Origin: a virus
Lineage: Duplodnaviria > Caudoviricetes
Length of the DNA stretch: 33,567 bases
Direction: 5' to 3' (one strand)
IMG/VR virus record: IMGVR_UViG_3300016484_001207
Coordinates: 1 to 33,567 of that record
The translations under genes and the position numbers were made by a program. Below, piece after piece: positions 5,598 to 16,115 of the stretch (the first letter of the stretch is position 1; each line of letters begins with the position of its first letter). The notes beneath the pieces were generated by a model, which was given only the letters and a program-made list of their open reading frames with translations, made no database searches and was not told the DNA's origin.

Positions 5598-5727
5598 AAC
5601 GGATTTGGGCTTTGCGATGTGGTGGCATTCAAGGCTCGTCAGTTCAAATAACCACCAAAGCTGATTAGATGTACACAGCTTAATTTTTGTACGTCAGCCA
5701 CCATATAGCAAAACCCCTGTTATATGC
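5592..5727 (+). repeat. attC-like hairpin site 1
   Basis: GCGTAAAAC (5592-5600) ... arms 5607-5626/5697-5716 (17/20 complementary) ... GTTATATGC (5719-5727); overlaps the MTase stop codon. Confidence 0.75.
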
Positions 5728-5758
5728 TGTGCTTTTTTAGGGGTAAAAATTATTCAAA

Positions 5759-6244
5759 ATGGATAGAAACACATACAGAGGTCGTGGATTTGTCAGAGTA
5801 CAAAGATTTCCTGAACGCTACGAAAAAACAGCTTTTGTTTATGGTGATTTTCATAAAGATTATGATGGTAGTTTATATCACTACATCACTAAACTACCTG
5901 ATATGGAAAATGAGTTTCAAACAAGTTTTTACAATGTTGAAAGCAATACAGTTACTCAATGTACTGGATTGAAAGATAAAAATGGAACGCCAATTTTTGA
6001 AGGCGATATAATTAAGTACACAGCACACGAAAAATATTTACTACCTACATTTTTTGCAACCGTTGTATTTGAGGAAGATTACGCCTATTTCGGTTACAAA
6101 AGAGCCGACCAAAATAATTATGGATATGCTACGCCATTTTCCGACCACGATGAATTAAAAACGGACTTTTTAAATTTTGTCGAAGTTGTCGGCAATATTT
6201 GGGATAATCAAATTTCGGAACTGGTCGCACAGCATAGCATATAA
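5759..6244 (+). CDS. YopX-family protein (cassette 1)
   Basis: QCTGLKDKNGTPIFEGDII and EVVGNIWDN motifs. Confidence 0.9.
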   Translation: MDRNTYRGRGFVRVQRFPERYEKTAFVYGDFHKDYDGSLYHYITKLPDMENEFQTSFYNVESNTVTQCTGLKDKNGTPIFEGDIIKYTAHEKYLLPTFFATVVFEEDYAYFGYKRADQNNYGYATPFSDHDELKTDFLNFVEVVGNIWDNQISELVAQHSI

Positions 6245-6370
6245 CGTTGAAGCATTGGCGATGTTGCCGATTTTAAAAACAAATGTTCAATTAACCACAA
6301 AAGCTAAATATATGCAATCAGTTGAAAATATGCAGTCCAGCGGCAATATTGCCAATGCAGTGTTGCCTGC
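6237..6370 (+). repeat. attC-like hairpin site 2
   Basis: GCATATAAC (6237-6245) ... arms 6252-6269/6341-6358 (16/18) ... GTTGCCTGC (6362-6370); loop 6285-6314 is 25/30 identical to site 1 loop 5642-5671. Confidence 0.8.
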
Positions 6371-6968
6371 TGTGGCATGGTTAGAGTGCTGCTCCTGCGG
6401 CAATCAAATTGAGGAAGATTATTACAGGGAGAAGGACAATGAGATTTACTGCGATAATTGCTACGAAGAACAATTTCAATTTCATTGCCCTATCTGCGAA
6501 GAATACCACGACAAAACAGGAACACCCGAAAAAACATTCTTCTACCTGCATGAGCAACACGGCAATTTGAAACCTGGCTATTACCGTGTAAAAGACTTTC
6601 CTGTTTTCATTTCCGATATGTTCAGTGCATGGATTTGCGAAGGTGCTGTGGAGTTGGCAAGTAAAAACGTTTGCTATAAGTACGAGGGAAAACTTAAAGC
6701 AACTGAATTTATTTGCGAAGATTGTTTTAATGAAAAAGGACTAAGCCAATGGCGTGTAGAAAGACATATCCATTATGCTATGAACAAAGCATACAAGCCA
6801 CGCAAGTACAAGAACTACAAAAGAGTGATTGTAACGGTGTCACCTGAATACTTTGAAATTATGGGCGGTAAAATCCGCTTCAAAAATGTCAGTCTAAAGA
6901 AGGATGAAAGCAAAAAAGTACAGCAGTTGTCTGTCCAATTTGAATTAGAGGAAAGCTCAAAGCCATAG
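6312..6968 (+). CDS. Multi-CxxC zinc-finger-like protein (cassette 2)
   Basis: CCSC, CDNC, CPIC, CEDC motifs; start uncertain (ATG 6312 or 6330 inside site 2; the track's 6177 start overlaps yopX). Confidence 0.75.
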   Translation: MQSVENMQSSGNIANAVLPAVAWLECCSCGNQIEEDYYREKDNEIYCDNCYEEQFQFHCPICEEYHDKTGTPEKTFFYLHEQHGNLKPGYYRVKDFPVFISDMFSAWICEGAVELASKNVCYKYEGKLKATEFICEDCFNEKGLSQWRVERHIHYAMNKAYKPRKYKNYKRVIVTVSPEYFEIMGGKIRFKNVSLKKDESKKVQQLSVQFELEESSKP

Positions 6969-7130
6969 CAGGCAACGCCCAGAAATTGCCGATGTGCGCC
7001 ACGAACCGGATGGAATCCGGGGTAAAGTGGTAAACATCGGTTGAGGCAGACGGCGCATATTGGCAATTTGATGTAGGCCGCCGTACGGCTTTTGTGGATG
7101 GCCTGCCGAATTTTCTGGGCGTAGGAACGC
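6968..7130 (+). repeat. attC-like hairpin site 3 (extended form)
   Basis: GCAGGCAAC (6968-6976); arms 6983-7000/7052-7069 (16/18); GTAGGCCGC at 7073; extra outer stem 6975-6985/7112-7122 followed by GTAGGAACGC. Confidence 0.75.
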
Positions 7131-7352
7131 CATAAGTAAGGACGGGAAATGAGGAACGAATTGAAGTCGTTACGGCTTTCACTCTAAGGGGTCAGGTGCC
7201 TGAAAGGGATATACTGTAGATAAGGTTCACACCACTGACTGCCGCAGTGGGATCTGGGGCGATGCCCACCGAGACGCAGGGAACAGGTCGGGCCATTAGA
7301 CAGCTAAGTGAACCCTCGCTGACCTCTTAGAGTGAAAGTATGGCGGTCCTAC
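7121..7352 (+). ncRNA. Putative structured non-coding RNA/cassette of unknown family
   Basis: Closing stem 7121-7134/7339-7352 (13/14), 21-bp stem 7175-7195/7319-7339 (two G-U), inner stems GGTTCAC/GTGAACC and CCACTG/CAGTGG; GC-richer than its flanks; no credible ORF. Confidence 0.6.
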
Positions 7353-7510
7353 GGGCTCCGGATTGCCGAAGTTCGCTGCGCTTTTAAGTGTAACGAAAAA
7401 GCAAGCAGTGAACGAGGCAAAGGTTTCTGCGAATTTTGGCAATCCGATGCTGGACGCTGCCCTGGTTGCCAAAGAGAGCAGTTACCTTTTTCCGGAGCCC
7501 GCTGGAACGC
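7345..7510 (+). repeat. attC-like hairpin site 4 (extended form)
   Basis: GGTCCTAC (7345-7352); arms 7360-7376/7429-7445 (15/17); GCTGGACGC at 7449; outer stem 7352-7362/7491-7501 followed by GCTGGAACGC. Confidence 0.7.
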
Positions 7511-7624
7511 AAAGAAAGCTATAGGAGTGAAGAATGAACGGACAGATTTCGTCCCTTAACCGATTCTTTTTTTCTTTTTAAAGCTGCGGAGCATTGTTTT
7601 ATAAAAACAAATAACAATAAAAAA

Positions 7625-8272
7625 ATGGAAAATTTATTTACAGAAAATTGTATCAGAACTTACTCTGGCATTTACTTCAATGTTTTTGACCCAAAGCCTG
7701 AAATGGTTAACATAAATGATATTGCCCACGCATTATCTATGCAGCCAAGATTTGGAGGGCATCTACCTGAATTTTATTCAGTAGCACAGCACAGTATTCA
7801 TGTGTGTGATAAATTATCTGATGGCAACGAAATATACGGGTTGTTGCATGATGCATCCGAAGCTTATTTAATAGATATGCCAAGACCTGTAAAAAAAGGG
7901 CTTACGAATTATAAAGAAATTGAGGAAAAGATTATGAAGGTAATATCTGATGCCTTTGGCTTGGTTTATAATAAGTTTCTTTTTCAAAGTCTCAAAAATG
8001 CAGATAATGAAATGTTGCAAATAGAGTGGGATTCGTTGATGATTGGTAAAAACAATACTCTGAATTGTCTGAATCAATTTGAAGCGAAGTTATATTTTCT
8101 CAACAGATACGATTTTTTAACCGGGAACGATAAAATACAATCTGAACCAGCGGCCGCCCCTGCCATCAACGTGGAAAAGAAGGAGGGAAAGGAGGTTTGC
8201 CAACATGATTGGGATAATACAAAAGCTGGTAATTATTGTAAAGTTTGTGATAAGTATTTTGATGATGAATGA
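7625..8272 (+). CDS. HD-domain phosphohydrolase (YfbR/YfdR-like 5'-deoxynucleotidase)
   Basis: DIAHALS..PRFGGH..EFYSVAQHS, LLHDASEAY..DMPRPVK; extra C-terminal CQH...CKVC tail. Confidence 0.88.
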   Translation: MENLFTENCIRTYSGIYFNVFDPKPEMVNINDIAHALSMQPRFGGHLPEFYSVAQHSIHVCDKLSDGNEIYGLLHDASEAYLIDMPRPVKKGLTNYKEIEEKIMKVISDAFGLVYNKFLFQSLKNADNEMLQIEWDSLMIGKNNTLNCLNQFEAKLYFLNRYDFLTGNDKIQSEPAAAPAINVEKKEGKEVCQHDWDNTKAGNYCKVCDKYFDDE

Positions 8273-8725: not shown

Positions 8726-9190
8726 ATGTCGCAAGTTCAAGGGTACACAAATCGCACTTTTAAAGCATTGGGAAGAATCCTTTTGCACAAGTATCCTGCA
8801 ATTGCAGAAGAGCTGATTCCTTTTTGCCAGGCTGAAGGTGAAACAGACATGGATTTGCTGCCCGGCTACTTTAAGCGCTTTTGCGAAATAAAGCAAATAA
8901 ACCCGCTGGAACACATTGGCGAATTACGCAGCGACCGGGAAAAGATGAACAACCGCATGTTATTTGTTGCCTGTATGCTCCACATCTACAATCAGCACAT
9001 CTTTCATACCAATGGCTCCACTCCATTCTTCCGCCGTGGTTTTGTTAAGCACTTATCGGAATGCCAAAGCATAAGCCCTACTAACATAAGCCTGATGATT
9101 CGCAAAGTAATGGTGCATGAACGTGTTTATGATGATTTTAAAAAAGAGATACAGTCAATTGTTAATCAGCTAAAACAAACTGTAAACTAA
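8726..9190 (+). CDS. Hypothetical protein (first gene of the late operon)
   Basis: 154-aa ORF coupled by TAATG to the next gene. Confidence 0.75.
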   Translation: MSQVQGYTNRTFKALGRILLHKYPAIAEELIPFCQAEGETDMDLLPGYFKRFCEIKQINPLEHIGELRSDREKMNNRMLFVACMLHIYNQHIFHTNGSTPFFRRGFVKHLSECQSISPTNISLMIRKVMVHERVYDDFKKEIQSIVNQLKQTVN

Positions 9191-10350: not shown

Positions 10351-10689
10351 ATGAGTAAATTTTTTTCAATTGATGAATTGCATGAACTTATTGGTAAGTA
10401 TTTAGAACAAGAAATTACCATTGGCAAATTAACAGAATTACTAAACCTAAAAGCAGTTAACGCAGTTCCCGGAACTCTAACAGGAATAATTATTAAGCAT
10501 ATTCCTGCTGGTGAAATATATGGTGGTGTTGCAGTAGAAACTGCTGTTGGAAATTTTGCCGTTTCTAAAAAAGACCAATTATTAGCCCGTGCTAATATTG
10601 GTGCAAAAGTTATAGTTTCTGTTATGGAAGATTTTTATAAAACTGTTGAGATTAGAGATTATCCTGATGGATATTCACCAACGCCATAA
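10351..10689 (+). CDS. Hypothetical protein inserted between terS and terL
   Basis: 112-aa AT-rich ORF with its own A-rich leader. Confidence 0.7.
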   Translation: MSKFFSIDELHELIGKYLEQEITIGKLTELLNLKAVNAVPGTLTGIIIKHIPAGEIYGGVAVETAVGNFAVSKKDQLLARANIGAKVIVSVMEDFYKTVEIRDYPDGYSPTP

Positions 10690-12387: not shown

Positions 12388-13779
12388 ATGGAAATTAACG
12401 AAATAATTGCCCTTTCAGCTGACTTTATTAAGCTGCGTGAAAAGGTTATATCCACCAAAACAAACACTGAAAATATTGCCAATTACTTGAAGCAATATGA
12501 CCCTTATTGCCATGTAATTACAGATAAGTCTAAGCGACCTGATAAGGTAGTTACAACAGGTGAAGGTGCAGAGCAAAAGACAAAGGTTGTAAGCATTTCC
12601 CGCCTTCCCATACCCATGCAAAAGCAGATTGTGCAGTTTGCCGCCGCCTTCCTTTGCGGAAACCCAATTGAACTGATTGCCCTTCCAAAAGATGACACTG
12701 AAAAGGATATGATGGAAGTGGTTAAAAAATCCTGGATGAAAAACAAACTGGATTATGACAGTAAGAAGCTGGTGAAGATAATGATGAGTGAAACGGAAGT
12801 GGCAGAGCTGTGGTACCGTGAAGAGGCTGATACTGATTATTGGGCAAACACACCCAATGAGGGCAGGCCACACCGATTGCGTATGAAAGTGCTGGCTAAT
12901 TCTTTGGGTGATACTTTGTATCCGGTGTTTAATGCTGCCGGCGACATGGTTGCCTTTGCCAGAGCATACACACTTTTATTTGATGGCAAGAAAGAAGAGC
13001 ACTTTGATGTGTACACTGATAAAACAACATGGCTTGCAAAGAGTGTTAACGGGCAATGGGAAGTGGTATCTGAAGCCAACATATTTGGCAAAATACCTGT
13101 TATCTATTACAACCAGCCAAAGCCTGAATGGAACGATGTGCAGGCACTGATTGAGCGCTGGGAAGAGGCCATCAGTAACCACGCTGATACGAACGGATAT
13201 TTCTCTTCACCGATGGTTAAAGTATCGGGAGAGATTAAAGGTTTTGCCACTAAAGGTGAAACAGGGCAGGTTTTGGAATTGGCTAATGGCGCCACAGCAG
13301 ATTATATGAGCTGGGACCAGTCGCCTAAATCATTAGAACTGGAATTTAAAAACCTTCGCTCTATCATTTACGATATGACCTGCACACCTGACATCTCTAT
13401 TGAAAACATGAAAGGGCTGGGTACCTTTTCCGGCATTGCGTTAAAGATGCTGTTTCTTTCTGCACACCTGAAGGCCGCTGATAAGGAGGAAACATTTGGT
13501 AAGTCTATCCAGCGCCGCATCAACTTTATTATAAATGCCATGGGCTTATTCAACGTGGCAAAGTTGGGTAAAGCAACGGCCATCGACATTACACCAAAGT
13601 TTGTGTATTACATGCCACAGAATGAGGAAGAGATAATTAACCTGCTGGTTGCTGCAACAGGTGGTAAAGCTGTAATGACACAGGCCACAGCTGTTAAGCA
13701 TAACCCTTTGGTAAATGATAAAGAGGCTGAAATTGAAGAGCTGAAAAAAGAAGATACAATTGATGTATTAACTCCTTAA
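12388..13779 (+). CDS. Portal protein, SPP1 gp6-like
   Basis: FLCGNP, NIFGKIPVIYY, TPDIS, SGIALK, FGKSIQRR motifs; follows terL. Confidence 0.92.
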   Translation: MEINEIIALSADFIKLREKVISTKTNTENIANYLKQYDPYCHVITDKSKRPDKVVTTGEGAEQKTKVVSISRLPIPMQKQIVQFAAAFLCGNPIELIALPKDDTEKDMMEVVKKSWMKNKLDYDSKKLVKIMMSETEVAELWYREEADTDYWANTPNEGRPHRLRMKVLANSLGDTLYPVFNAAGDMVAFARAYTLLFDGKKEEHFDVYTDKTTWLAKSVNGQWEVVSEANIFGKIPVIYYNQPKPEWNDVQALIERWEEAISNHADTNGYFSSPMVKVSGEIKGFATKGETGQVLELANGATADYMSWDQSPKSLELEFKNLRSIIYDMTCTPDISIENMKGLGTFSGIALKMLFLSAHLKAADKEETFGKSIQRRINFIINAMGLFNVAKLGKATAIDITPKFVYYMPQNEEEIINLLVAATGGKAVMTQATAVKHNPLVNDKEAEIEELKKEDTIDVLTP

Positions 13780-14372: not shown

Positions 14373-16115
14373 TTGCCGCCGATTAATCCATACGACCTGC
14401 AGCAGCTAAAAAACCAGGCTGTAATAAATAAACGAATCCTGAAAATATATCAGGATTCAATTGCTTCATTAACTCCAACGCTCAGCACTATCACTTACAA
14501 TGGCAAGCCTTTCCGGTTGTCCGATTATCCAAAACTAAAACAGCGTGTTGATGCCCTTGCAAAAAAACTGCAGGGCGACATTTATTCTGCAACCGTCAAC
14601 GGCATAAAAGACAGCTGGAAACTATCTAACAAAAAGAATGATGTGCTGGTTGATAAGCGCCTTGCAGGGCGCAAGCCAAAGCCTGCTGTAAGAAAGGTTT
14701 TGTATGATGCCAATGCACCGGCGCTGGATAAGTTTATTAATCGTAAAGAAAACGGCTTAAACCTGAGCGACCGTGTTTGGAATTTAACAGAGCCATTTAA
14801 AAAAGAGCTGGAACAGGGTTTGGGCATTGGCATTGGTAAGGGAAGGCCTGCAAAAGAAATGGCTAAAGATTTAAAGCAATACCTTAATGAGCCCGACAGA
14901 TTATACCGCCGTGTACGTGGTGAAGATGGCAAGCTCCATTTATCTGCTGAAGCCCGTAATTACCACCCAGGGCAGGGCGTGTATCGCAGTAGTTATAAAA
15001 ATGCATTGCGGCTTACCAGAACTGAAAACAACGGCGCTTACCGCACCGCTGATTTTGAACGCTGGCAACAGTTGCCATTTATCACCGGCATTCATATCAA
15101 ACTATCCAATGCACATCCGGTATATGACATTTGTGACCGCATGGTTGGTTTATATCCAAAAGACTTTAAGTTTTTTGGCTGGCATCCGCAATGCCTTTGT
15201 TATGCCACGCCTGAACAAATGAGTGATGAAGAATATAACAGGCTGGAAGATCAGATATTAAACGGACAGCCGATAACAGTTTCCGGTGCCAACGTGGTGC
15301 AGCATCCGCCGGCTGAGTTTGGCAATTACATTAAGGAAAACAAGGCCATGCTGGACCGTATGAAAAACAAACCCTATTGGATGCGTGACAATCCTGATTA
15401 TGTGCAATCTGCTGTTAAAGCAGTTGATAAGCCGCTGCCGGTTGCCGGTGCACAACGCATCAGCACACAGTTTACTAAAATTTCACCCGCTGTAAAACCA
15501 TATGCAACCCATGCACTGCAGTCAATTGATGCGGTACATGGTGATGGCATACTGGATGATATCCCTTTTGTAAAATCCAGATCAACAAAATACAATGGTG
15601 CATTTACATCCGATACACTTGGCCGGGCAAAAGAAATATCATTAACCAATTTAGGTATTAGCAATGCCCCTGAAATAACCATGGCACATGAAATGGGCCA
15701 CTACCTGGACTTGTATGCCGTTGGCAAAAAAGGAAGCTGGAATTCCTTACAAAAAGATTCACCTATTGCAAAAGTGGTATCAGTTGCACGGGAATCTAAA
15801 GCAATGAAGAATATTGAAGCCCTTGTAAACAATGGCTATGTTGAAGTAAATGGTAAAAAGATTTGGCACAGCGGAAAAATTAAAAAGCATCTTAACTACC
15901 TTAACAATCCCAAAGAAGTTTGGGCCCGTGCTTATGCACAGTTTATTGCAGAAAAAAGCGGTTCGCAAAAAATGATTGAAGGTTTAGAAACTACTATTGC
16001 CAGAGACAGGAAGCGCAAATTTTGGGCTTATCAATGGGAGACGGAAGATTTTGCGGATATAAGTGCAGCTATAGAAAAGATGATGATTGATGAAGGCTGG
16101 ATTGTTAGTCAATAA
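14373..16115 (+). CDS. Minor head morphogenesis protein (MuF/gp7-like) with C-terminal zincin-like domain
   Basis: ALRLTRTE, ICD, GWHPQCLC MuF motifs; HEMGH at 15687-15701 and downstream EVWARAYAQ; TTG start. Confidence 0.82.
   Translation: MPPINPYDLQQLKNQAVINKRILKIYQDSIASLTPTLSTITYNGKPFRLSDYPKLKQRVDALAKKLQGDIYSATVNGIKDSWKLSNKKNDVLVDKRLAGRKPKPAVRKVLYDANAPALDKFINRKENGLNLSDRVWNLTEPFKKELEQGLGIGIGKGRPAKEMAKDLKQYLNEPDRLYRRVRGEDGKLHLSAEARNYHPGQGVYRSSYKNALRLTRTENNGAYRTADFERWQQLPFITGIHIKLSNAHPVYDICDRMVGLYPKDFKFFGWHPQCLCYATPEQMSDEEYNRLEDQILNGQPITVSGANVVQHPPAEFGNYIKENKAMLDRMKNKPYWMRDNPDYVQSAVKAVDKPLPVAGAQRISTQFTKISPAVKPYATHALQSIDAVHGDGILDDIPFVKSRSTKYNGAFTSDTLGRAKEISLTNLGISNAPEITMAHEMGHYLDLYAVGKKGSWNSLQKDSPIAKVVSVARESKAMKNIEALVNNGYVEVNGKKIWHSGKIKKHLNYLNNPKEVWARAYAQFIAEKSGSQKMIEGLETTIARDRKRKFWAYQWETEDFADISAAIEKMMIDEGWIVSQ

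What the first reader, a model, noticed from the sequence alone, without database searches (positions are those of the whole stretch)
6968..7556. Sites 3 and 4 are an extended two-state variant with duplicated right cores
Seen: both sites add a ~50-nt module. The right core occurs twice (GTAGGCCGC 7073 / GTAGGAACGC 7121; GCTGGACGC 7449 / GCTGGAACGC 7501). The second copy is preceded by a perfect complement of the bases after the left core (11-bp stems 6975-6985/7112-7122 and 7352-7362/7491-7501). Each loop also holds a competitor for the left arm: ACATCGG 7034-7040 versus CCGATGT 6989-6995, and GCAGTGAAC 7405-7413 versus GTTCGCTGC 7371-7379. Both loops contain GAGGCA, and both sites are followed by TGA(G/A)GAA(C/T)GAA and a small hairpin. 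Inference: mutually exclusive folds, or two alternative crossover points, acting as a switch.
Basis: partly seen in the sequence, partly recalled or inferred. Interest (0 to 1): 0.7.

Follow-up and report, generated by a model that had tools for sequence, protein, structure and literature searches.

The report
Self-locking DNA hairpin recombination sites
In this bacteriophage's array of swappable gene cassettes, two of the DNA hairpin junctions carry a conserved extra module that is predicted to refold the junction away from its usual shape, which would make it a built-in lock deciding when a cassette can move.

Summary
Sites 3 and 4 belong to a rare subfamily of attC-like junctions in Bacteroidota phage cassette arrays. 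I found four more copies in other phage, prophage or metagenome contigs, giving four lineages at 60-77% identity; one copy was found out of sample. All six copies have two right cores 48-52 nt apart and a 10-11-bp perfect zipper to the spacer. None of 22 ordinary sites has that zipper. The canonical stem and its loop competitor both show compensatory changes, and both right cores track the far end of the cassette to their right. Natural junctions fall at the left core, so the right cores look like alternative pairing partners, not alternative crossovers. Folding models say the zipper fold dominates once the whole site is single-stranded; the ordinary attC-like fold (core 1) prevails only before the zipper is exposed. 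This points to a lock with a time or strand window rather than a balanced toggle. GAGGCA is not conserved, and the TGA..GAA motif is a DNA-type GNA hairpin cap. No recombinase or activity was shown, and which fold is active is untested.

The parts
6962..6976 (+). Right end of cassette 2, ending in the left core AAC (6974-6976); the junction where neighbours are exchanged
   Evidence: Complementary to the cassette 2 start at 6362. Other samples carry the same cassette followed by different sites after 6977; L386 carries site 3 behind a different cassette.
6975..6985 (+). Site 3 spacer, 5' strand of the zipper
   Evidence: 11-bp perfect pairing with 7112-7122
6983..7002 (+). Site 3 left arm; pairs with either the right arm or the loop competitor
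7006..7020 (+). Site 3 apical hairpin with GGA triloop
   Evidence: GCA loop in L386
7027..7043 (+). Site 3 loop competitor of the left arm
7052..7069 (+). Site 3 right arm (canonical stem)
7073..7085 (+). Site 3 right core 1, in the register of ordinary sites (9 and 6 nt spacers)
   Evidence: pairs with far end 7339-7352 with one bulge and one G-T
7086..7120 (+). Site 3 added module, ending in the 3' strand of the zipper (7112-7120)
7121..7134 (+). Site 3 right core 2 = left end of cassette 3
   Evidence: 13 of 14 pairs with 7339-7352
7136..7173 (+). Side hairpin capped by T-GA-G-GAA-C-GA-A (7150-7160), a GNA triloop with inferred tandem G.A pairs
   Evidence: closing pair G-C, A-T or C-G across copies
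7176..7338 (+). Cassette 3 inner stem (7176-7195/7319-7338) around a 123-nt non-coding cargo
   Evidence: I5; whole cassette z -6.7 as DNA; cargo alone z 0.11 as RNA
7339..7352 (+). Far end of cassette 3, ending in TAC = left core of site 4
   Evidence: the same end in L489 is joined to an ordinary site
7352..7445 (+). Site 4 zipper 5' strand (7352-7362), left arm (7363-7379), apical hairpin with GTA loop (7380-7402), competitor (7405-7420), right arm (7429-7445)
7449..7510 (+). Site 4 core 1 (7449), module, zipper 3' strand (7491-7501), core 2 (7501); both cores read GCT
7528..7538 (+). Site 4 downstream GNA cap T-GA-A-GAA-T-GA-A
7625..8272 (+). Gene behind site 4, PHROG deoxyribonucleoside 5'-monophosphate phosphatase; no matching far cassette end found
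   Evidence: (no match within 3 substitutions anywhere in the window)
5598..6976 (+). Context: ordinary sites 1 and 2 with cassette 1 (YopX) and cassette 2

Best explanation
Sites 3 and 4 are members of a conserved subfamily of attC-like cassette junctions in Bacteroidota phages, and their added module likely acts as a built-in lock on a single-stranded-DNA recombination hairpin. Shown: each site travels with the cassette on its right; neighbours change at the left core (xAC); both right cores are complementary to that cassette's far end; the left arm has two conserved partners; the spacer has a perfect zipper next to core 2. Predicted by folding: with core 1 the site takes the geometry of ordinary sites (open spacer, intact arm stem); with core 2 the spacer is zipped shut and, in most copies, both arms are captured by local hairpins; the zipped state wins once the last ~10 nt of the module are single-stranded. 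Inferred: the core-1 fold is the recombinase substrate. It would exist briefly while the gene-sense strand is exposed 5' to 3' (replication, phage DNA entry) or if a recombinase captures it, whereas the opposite strand would meet the lock first. The result would be cassettes that move rarely and through one strand. The recombinase is unidentified and is probably supplied in trans.
For: Six copies in five contigs, four lineages at 60-77% identity, in hosts as different as the window's phage and a Mu-like prophage. Zipper in 6 of 6 against 0 of 22 ordinary sites. Canonical stem: 5 of 18 pairs change on both sides, 96.7% of cells paired. Competitor helix: 4 of 15 pairs, 82.7% paired, with the same two left-arm columns changing in both helices. 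L489, not used to build the model, keeps every helix with new substitutions. One G-to-T change in the far end between site 3 and L489 is matched in both cores. Spacers to core 1 are 9/6, 10/7, 10/6 and 9/7 nt, against 9/6 in ordinary site 2 (sequence). With the cassette's own end attached, the canonical fold has probability 0.80-0.94 until the zipper appears, then 7e-6 to 4e-12 (4 of 4 copies with a known far end). GNA caps fall on the gene-sense strand only: 2 of 3 in the window and 2 of 2 in about 37 kb around L489 lie in these units; d(GNA) loops are unusually stable in DNA (PMC3201870, passages). In integrons, non-canonical attC folds go with lower recombination (PMC6393395 passages; PMC8946536 passages).
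Against: No activity data, and no recombinase in the window. Only four lineages, and the structures were drawn from these sequences, so the 0 of 500 shuffle results are not probabilities. The module's energy gain is not significant in 3 of 5 copies tested. L489 is predicted to keep the canonical arm stem under the zipper (0.81-0.87), so arm capture is not universal. With the native foreign left flank, the strict canonical fold reaches only 0.009-0.13 even when the strand is cut after core 1. The prefix calculation is an equilibrium on truncated strands, not kinetics, and ignores SSB and recombinase binding. The elements have evidently moved between phages, so any lock is leaky. The left-core-only rule rests on a few natural comparisons.
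Confidence: 0.5

Rival explanations
1. The zipped core-2 fold is itself a substrate: it builds a continuous duplex (core arm, paired spacer, arm stem) on a forked hairpin, as the CTX phage attP does on its single-stranded genome. The two folds would then serve two reactions, such as integration of the excised circle and excision.
For: The zipper dominates in all copies (0.77-1.00). The hybrid fold with an intact arm stem is the main state in L489 and 0.07-0.13 in site 3 and L386. Core 2 tracks the far end more tightly than core 1 (L320 gained a pair in core 2 only). The cassette ends form 26-35-bp stems that would continue the duplex in a circle. CTX forked hairpin: PMC3089051, one passage.
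Against: None of 22 ordinary sites has a zipped spacer. The hybrid fold is negligible in site 4 (3e-8) and L210 (3e-5). No dif-type arms were tested.
Confidence: 0.25
2. The pattern is a by-product: an old internal duplication whose complementarities are kept by template-switch repair of hairpins, with no regulatory role.
For: Inverted repeats can homogenise by such repair (recalled, not tested). The module's energy gain is not significant in three copies. The family is rare: 1 of 151 genomes in the genus searched, 0 strong matches in four other model searches of 151 genomes each.
Against: Order and spacing of all parts are kept at 60-77% identity. The helix at the base of the module has four unrelated sequences (GGCAG/CTGCC, AGGAA/TTCCT, GTAAACC/GGTTTAC, AAGGT/ACCTT). 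G-T pairs persist, which repair would tend to remove.
Confidence: 0.12
3. It is an RNA switch in the transcript (attenuator or riboswitch-like) that controls the downstream gene.
For: The folds are also stable as RNA and lie on the gene-sense strand.
Against: No Rfam match. No terminator-like site on the sense strand. The caps are GNA triloops of DNA type. The cores track a sequence 230-630 nt away at the cassette's far end. Cassette 3 has no gene.
Confidence: 0.07
4. The two right cores are alternative crossover points, so recombination keeps or drops the module.
For: Both cores resemble a crossover core and both pair with the same partner.
Against: All six copies keep both cores, and related copies stay alike beyond core 2. 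No cassette starting at core 1 was seen. My patterns and models did not require core 2, but a site that had lost the module would score lower.
Confidence: 0.06

Closest known systems
Integron attC sites (IntI substrates; R'/R'' and L'/L'' boxes, unpaired central spacer)
   Same: Cassette with its own hairpin junction, exchange at one xAC/GTx core, cassette ends complementary, arm stem separated from the core pair by an open spacer. Read on the minus strand, the layout is cassette then own site, with genes inverted.
   Different: The non-cut core is duplicated, a zipper closes the spacer, and a competitor sits in the loop. Cores vary (GTT, GTA, GCT). Cassette ends pair over 14-15 bp in the window, up to 26-35 bp in this subfamily. 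No IntI was found.
Straight versus kinked conformers of attCaadA7 (PMC6393395)
   Same: One site, two folds; the non-canonical one is linked to lower recombination and to strand choice.
   Different: There the two folds differ by under 1 kJ/mol and arise from three spacer bases. Here a dedicated ~50-nt module with its own conserved helices shifts the predicted balance by several kcal/mol.
CTX phage attP(+) forked hairpin (XerCD; PMC3089051)
   Same: A recombination duplex built by folding one strand, with a branched top.
   Different: CTX has two inverted dif-like sites and one known fold. Here there are two candidate partners for one core, inside a cassette array.
REP/BIME repeats of RAYT transposases (recalled)
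   Same: GTAG followed by a hairpin at site 3; the same GA-N-GNA-N-GA cap occurs in repeats at L487/L488.
   Different: GTAG is not conserved (GTTAG, GCTGG), and no such transposase was found in the window.

Membership tests
Integron attC | Invariant AAC/GTT core triplets | tested here: not met
   Site 3 has AAC but GTA; site 4 has TAC and GCT; L210/L320 have AAC/GTT. TAC/GTA also bounds an ordinary cassette in L210.
Integron attC | Arm stem separated from the core pair by an unpaired spacer | tested here: met
   Met for the core-1 fold only; the zipper fold abolishes it.
Integron attC | Extrahelical bases in the arm stem | tested here: inconclusive
   One bulged base in L210, two in L489, none in sites 3 and 4.
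Integron attC | Cassettes exchanged precisely at the core | tested here: met
   Contigs from 4 of the 7 non-source runs laid (X2, X3, X5, X6) leave the window right after 6977 with loose ends listed; site 3 and L386 become alike at the AAC.
Integron | IntI integrase in cis | tested here: not met
   PF00589 absent from the window, G007 and G008; the one in G006 scores 48.7 bits on TIGR02249 against a cut-off of 265; none within the L489 region. The records are incomplete (window 55%).
Integron attC | Recombination as folded single strand with strand preference | not testable with these tools
   Inferred from strand-biased GNA caps and junction position.
CTX-type attP (IMEX) | XerC and XerD arms of dif type | not tested
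   No host dif was identified.
REP/BIME | Conserved GTAG/GGAG guide and a RAYT transposase | tested here: not met
Known structured RNA | Rfam match | tested here: not met
   0 at gathering score in the window; two chance snoRNA hits at E 0.45 and 1.5, both outside the sites.

The most novel reading that the evidence does not exclude
A natural single-stranded-DNA switch: a recombination site that reads the direction and timing of strand exposure, is active only in a short window and then locks itself. It is carried on a reusable cassette chassis (site, side hairpin, long end stems) loaded with different cargo: a methylase-like gene in L489, small unknown genes in L210 and L320, 123 non-coding bases here. 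That chassis would offer a testable route to how gene cassettes are built.
Probability: 0.27. Interest if true: 0.85.

Novelty: new variant of a known kind. Interest (0 to 1): 0.62.

Why it matters
Folding of attC hairpins sets how often cassettes move, but known alternative folds are small accidental conformers. A dedicated, covarying module that pairs off the site's own spacer and arms would be riboswitch-like logic in DNA, and it can be tested with oligonucleotides and a simple recombination assay. The same chassis with different cargo also bears on the open question of how cassettes arise, and on an integron-like system in Bacteroidota phages whose enzyme is not established.

Tried and rejected
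No match by blastn in phages or plasmids. Patterns on viral contigs: 0 hits; 122 loci from a scan that stopped at 41 of 64 parts, all chance on inspection; 2 chance hits; 1 real of 45; 1 of 45, the same contig again. Metagenome pattern: 1 real of 97. Protein-led searches with the phosphatase and with ORF 8726-9190 found no relatives. Genome searches: cap pattern 0 of 401; model R1 1 weak ordinary site in 151; model R2 nine weak matches in 8 of 151 genomes, seven ordinary sites and two other repeats, 0 of 151 at phylum level, four weak matches in 151 that I did not read, only the known copy among 151 relatives; arm pattern 2 of 401, the known copy and one coding chance hit. BLAST by handle missed even the known homologues, so BLAST blanks mean little. 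None of the 7 non-source runs laid covers 7055-7522; contigs cannot show absence. Rejected: GAGGCA as a conserved motif; group II intron (no Rfam match); target-site duplication as the cause of the 14-nt repeat around the G006 array, because G007 has another end at the same flank. In one search the script picked a wrong core 1 for L210/L320; those values come. Site 4 is one column out of register in parts of alignment A4, which lowers the counts.

Full report
Context. The window is a 33.6-kb tailed-phage contig (portal, major capsid, tape measure, terminase). Its methylase has close relatives in Chitinophagaceae and other Bacteroidota. After the methylase lies an array of hairpin junctions and cassettes whose two ends are complementary over 14-15 bases. 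The array is mobile in nature. Contigs of other metagenomes carry cassettes 1 and 2 with other neighbours, and leave the window right after the AAC cores at 6245 and 6976 or at the GTT at 6362 (three unrelated runs laid). Four more runs were laid on 6900-7700; two of them leave at 6977 into an ordinary site.

Observation. The region is 53% G+C against 37% on either side. Rfam has no match.

Homologues. A profile search of 160 methylase-linked loci found one extended site, in L210 (E 6e-10). Patterns then gave L320, 98% identical to L210 but ahead of a different cassette (1 of 45 loci), and L386, 93% identical to site 3 (1 of 97 loci). A covariance model of these five sequences found L489 in 1 of 151 genomes of the genus of G001 (E 1.5e-33), inside a Mu-like prophage. 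The six copies form four lineages at 60-77% identity. The family is rare in what was searched; the blanks are listed under Tried and rejected.

Anatomy. Each copy reads: left core xAC, spacer, left arm (TTGCCG...), apical hairpin, competitor, right arm, core 1, module, zipper, core 2, then a side hairpin. Core 1 and core 2 are 48-52 nt apart. The zipper is a perfect complement of core C plus spacer over 10-11 nt in 6 of 6 copies, against 0-7 nt in 22 of 22 ordinary sites that I picked by hand from the same loci. The spacers around core 1 reproduce those of ordinary sites (9/6 in site 3 and in site 2).

Covariation. On five sequences, the canonical arm stem has 5 of 18 pairs changed on both sides and the competitor helix 4 of 15; two left-arm columns change together with both partners. 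None of 500 shuffles reached either total, but the rows are related and the structures came from them, so this is not a probability. L489 is the cleaner test: its left arm reads TACGCC, its right arm GGCGTA and its competitor CGGTGTAC, and the helix at the base of the module is a fourth sequence, GTAAACC/GGTTTAC. The downstream cap closes with G-C, A-T or C-G around a GNA loop. Such caps occur only on the gene-sense strand and cluster in these units. GNA triloops are described as very stable in DNA (PMC3201870, passages), which favours single-stranded DNA over RNA; the tandem sheared G.A pairs are my inference. GAGGCA is not conserved in place.

What the two right cores are. In the 4 copies with a known far cassette end, both cores are complementary to it. 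A single substitution in that end between site 3 and L489 is mirrored in both cores. Related copies diverge immediately left of the AAC and stay alike for about 25-65 nt past core 2; L320's contig begins exactly at the AAC. Read on the minus strand, this is the integron layout of a cassette followed by its own site, with the gene inverted: the left core is the exchanged one and the right cores are its pairing partners. G006 and G007 end their arrays at the same fixed flank after different cassette ends, as a docking site would. Site 4 has GCT in both cores and no matching far end in the window, so its cassette is probably truncated.

Folding. With DNA parameters, the zipper forms in 0.77-1.00 of the ensemble on both strands of all six copies. 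It excludes core 1 as partner but not the arm stem, so three states exist: canonical (core 1), locked (zipper plus two local hairpins) and hybrid (zipper plus arm stem). The hybrid is 0.81-0.87 in L489, 0.12 in site 3, 0.07 in L386 and negligible in site 4 and L210. With the cassette's own end placed at the left, as in an excised circle, the canonical fold is 0.80-0.94 on plus-strand prefixes from about 10 to 50 nt past core 1, and falls to 7e-6 or less once the zipper is present (4 of 4). With the native foreign flank the strict canonical fold stays weak even when the strand is cut after core 1 (0.009-0.13 in the four complete copies; at most 0.07 on L489 prefixes), although the arm stem forms (0.73-0.98). 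Shuffling the module lowered stability clearly in 2 of 5 copies only. These are equilibrium calculations without proteins.

Mechanism. I favour a lock (0.5). The core-1 fold copies ordinary geometry and is conserved, so it is likely the substrate. The zipper fold removes the open spacer and usually the arm stem, and it is what remains after full exposure. The gene-sense strand would pass through the open state when unwound 5' to 3', while the other strand would meet the module first; this step is inferred from sequence order and was not simulated. In integrons, alternative folds are linked to lower recombination and to strand choice (PMC6393395, passages), and folding depends on replication and DNA entry (PMC8946536, passages). 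The main rival (0.25) is that the zipped form is a second substrate, like the forked hairpin of CTX phage (PMC3089051, one passage). A neutral duplication, an RNA switch and alternative crossovers are less likely.

Membership. It works like an attC site but is not filed as one: the core triplets vary and no IntI was found. The window is an incomplete record, and its methylase is on record in a 53.8-kb contig, so a recombinase may lie outside it.

Novelty. Eight answered literature searches on these sites (seen as listings) showed no description of a duplicated-core, self-zipping attC-like site. The library lacks most subscription papers, and I read no supplements, which could hold such a motif. 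From PMC8618304 I saw passages only. Earlier AI notes of this scan describe Bacteroidota arrays with Xer-like enzymes and none matched this sequence or design; they are leads, not support. Verdict: a real, conserved new variant of a known kind of site, mechanism untested, interest 0.62.

Noticed in passing
window 7121-7352; L489 1660-2291; L386 1697-1988; L210; L320: The same cassette chassis (core 2, GNA-capped side hairpin, 12-20-bp inner stem, far end) holds different cargo: 123 non-coding bases here, a methylase-like gene in L489, small unknown genes in L210 and L320.
   Followed up: partly
window 7196-7318: G+C-rich non-coding cargo with an internal GGTTCAC/GTGAACC stem; no Rfam match, no significant fold alone (z 0.11), no homologue in 160 loci searched.
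   Followed up: partly
window 7449-8272: Site 4 has GCT in both cores, and the phosphatase gene behind it has no matching far end, so the array seems to end in a truncated cassette.
   Followed up: partly
L473 about 10640-10670 (minus); L475 about 2003-2040: Two related phages end their arrays at the same fixed flank right after an AAC, with different cassette ends before it: a candidate docking site downstream of the genes.
   Followed up: no
L473 about 13145-13158 and 10669-10682 (minus): The G006 array is bracketed by a 14-nt direct repeat of a cassette far end; the first copy holds the stop codon of the upstream reading frame.
   Followed up: no
window 7565-7592; L210; L320; L489: A T-rich tract followed by a GC(T/C)(G/A)CGGAG motif precedes the gene in both ordinary and extended cassettes.
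   Followed up: no
L487, L488: Host repeats unrelated to these arrays carry the same GAGTGA-N-GNA-N-GAACG cap, so it may be a general single-stranded-DNA building block.
   Followed up: no
window 5719-6976: Cassettes 1 (YopX) and 2 occur at 90-99% identity in several sludge metagenomes with other neighbours.
   Followed up: partly
window 14373-16115: Head morphogenesis protein of 580 aa whose first 350 residues also match a PHROG family labelled ADP-ribosyl transferase; the C-terminal part was not examined.
   Followed up: no
L489 1780-2160: The methylase-like cargo appears to be out of frame near its start (real or assembly error).
   Followed up: no
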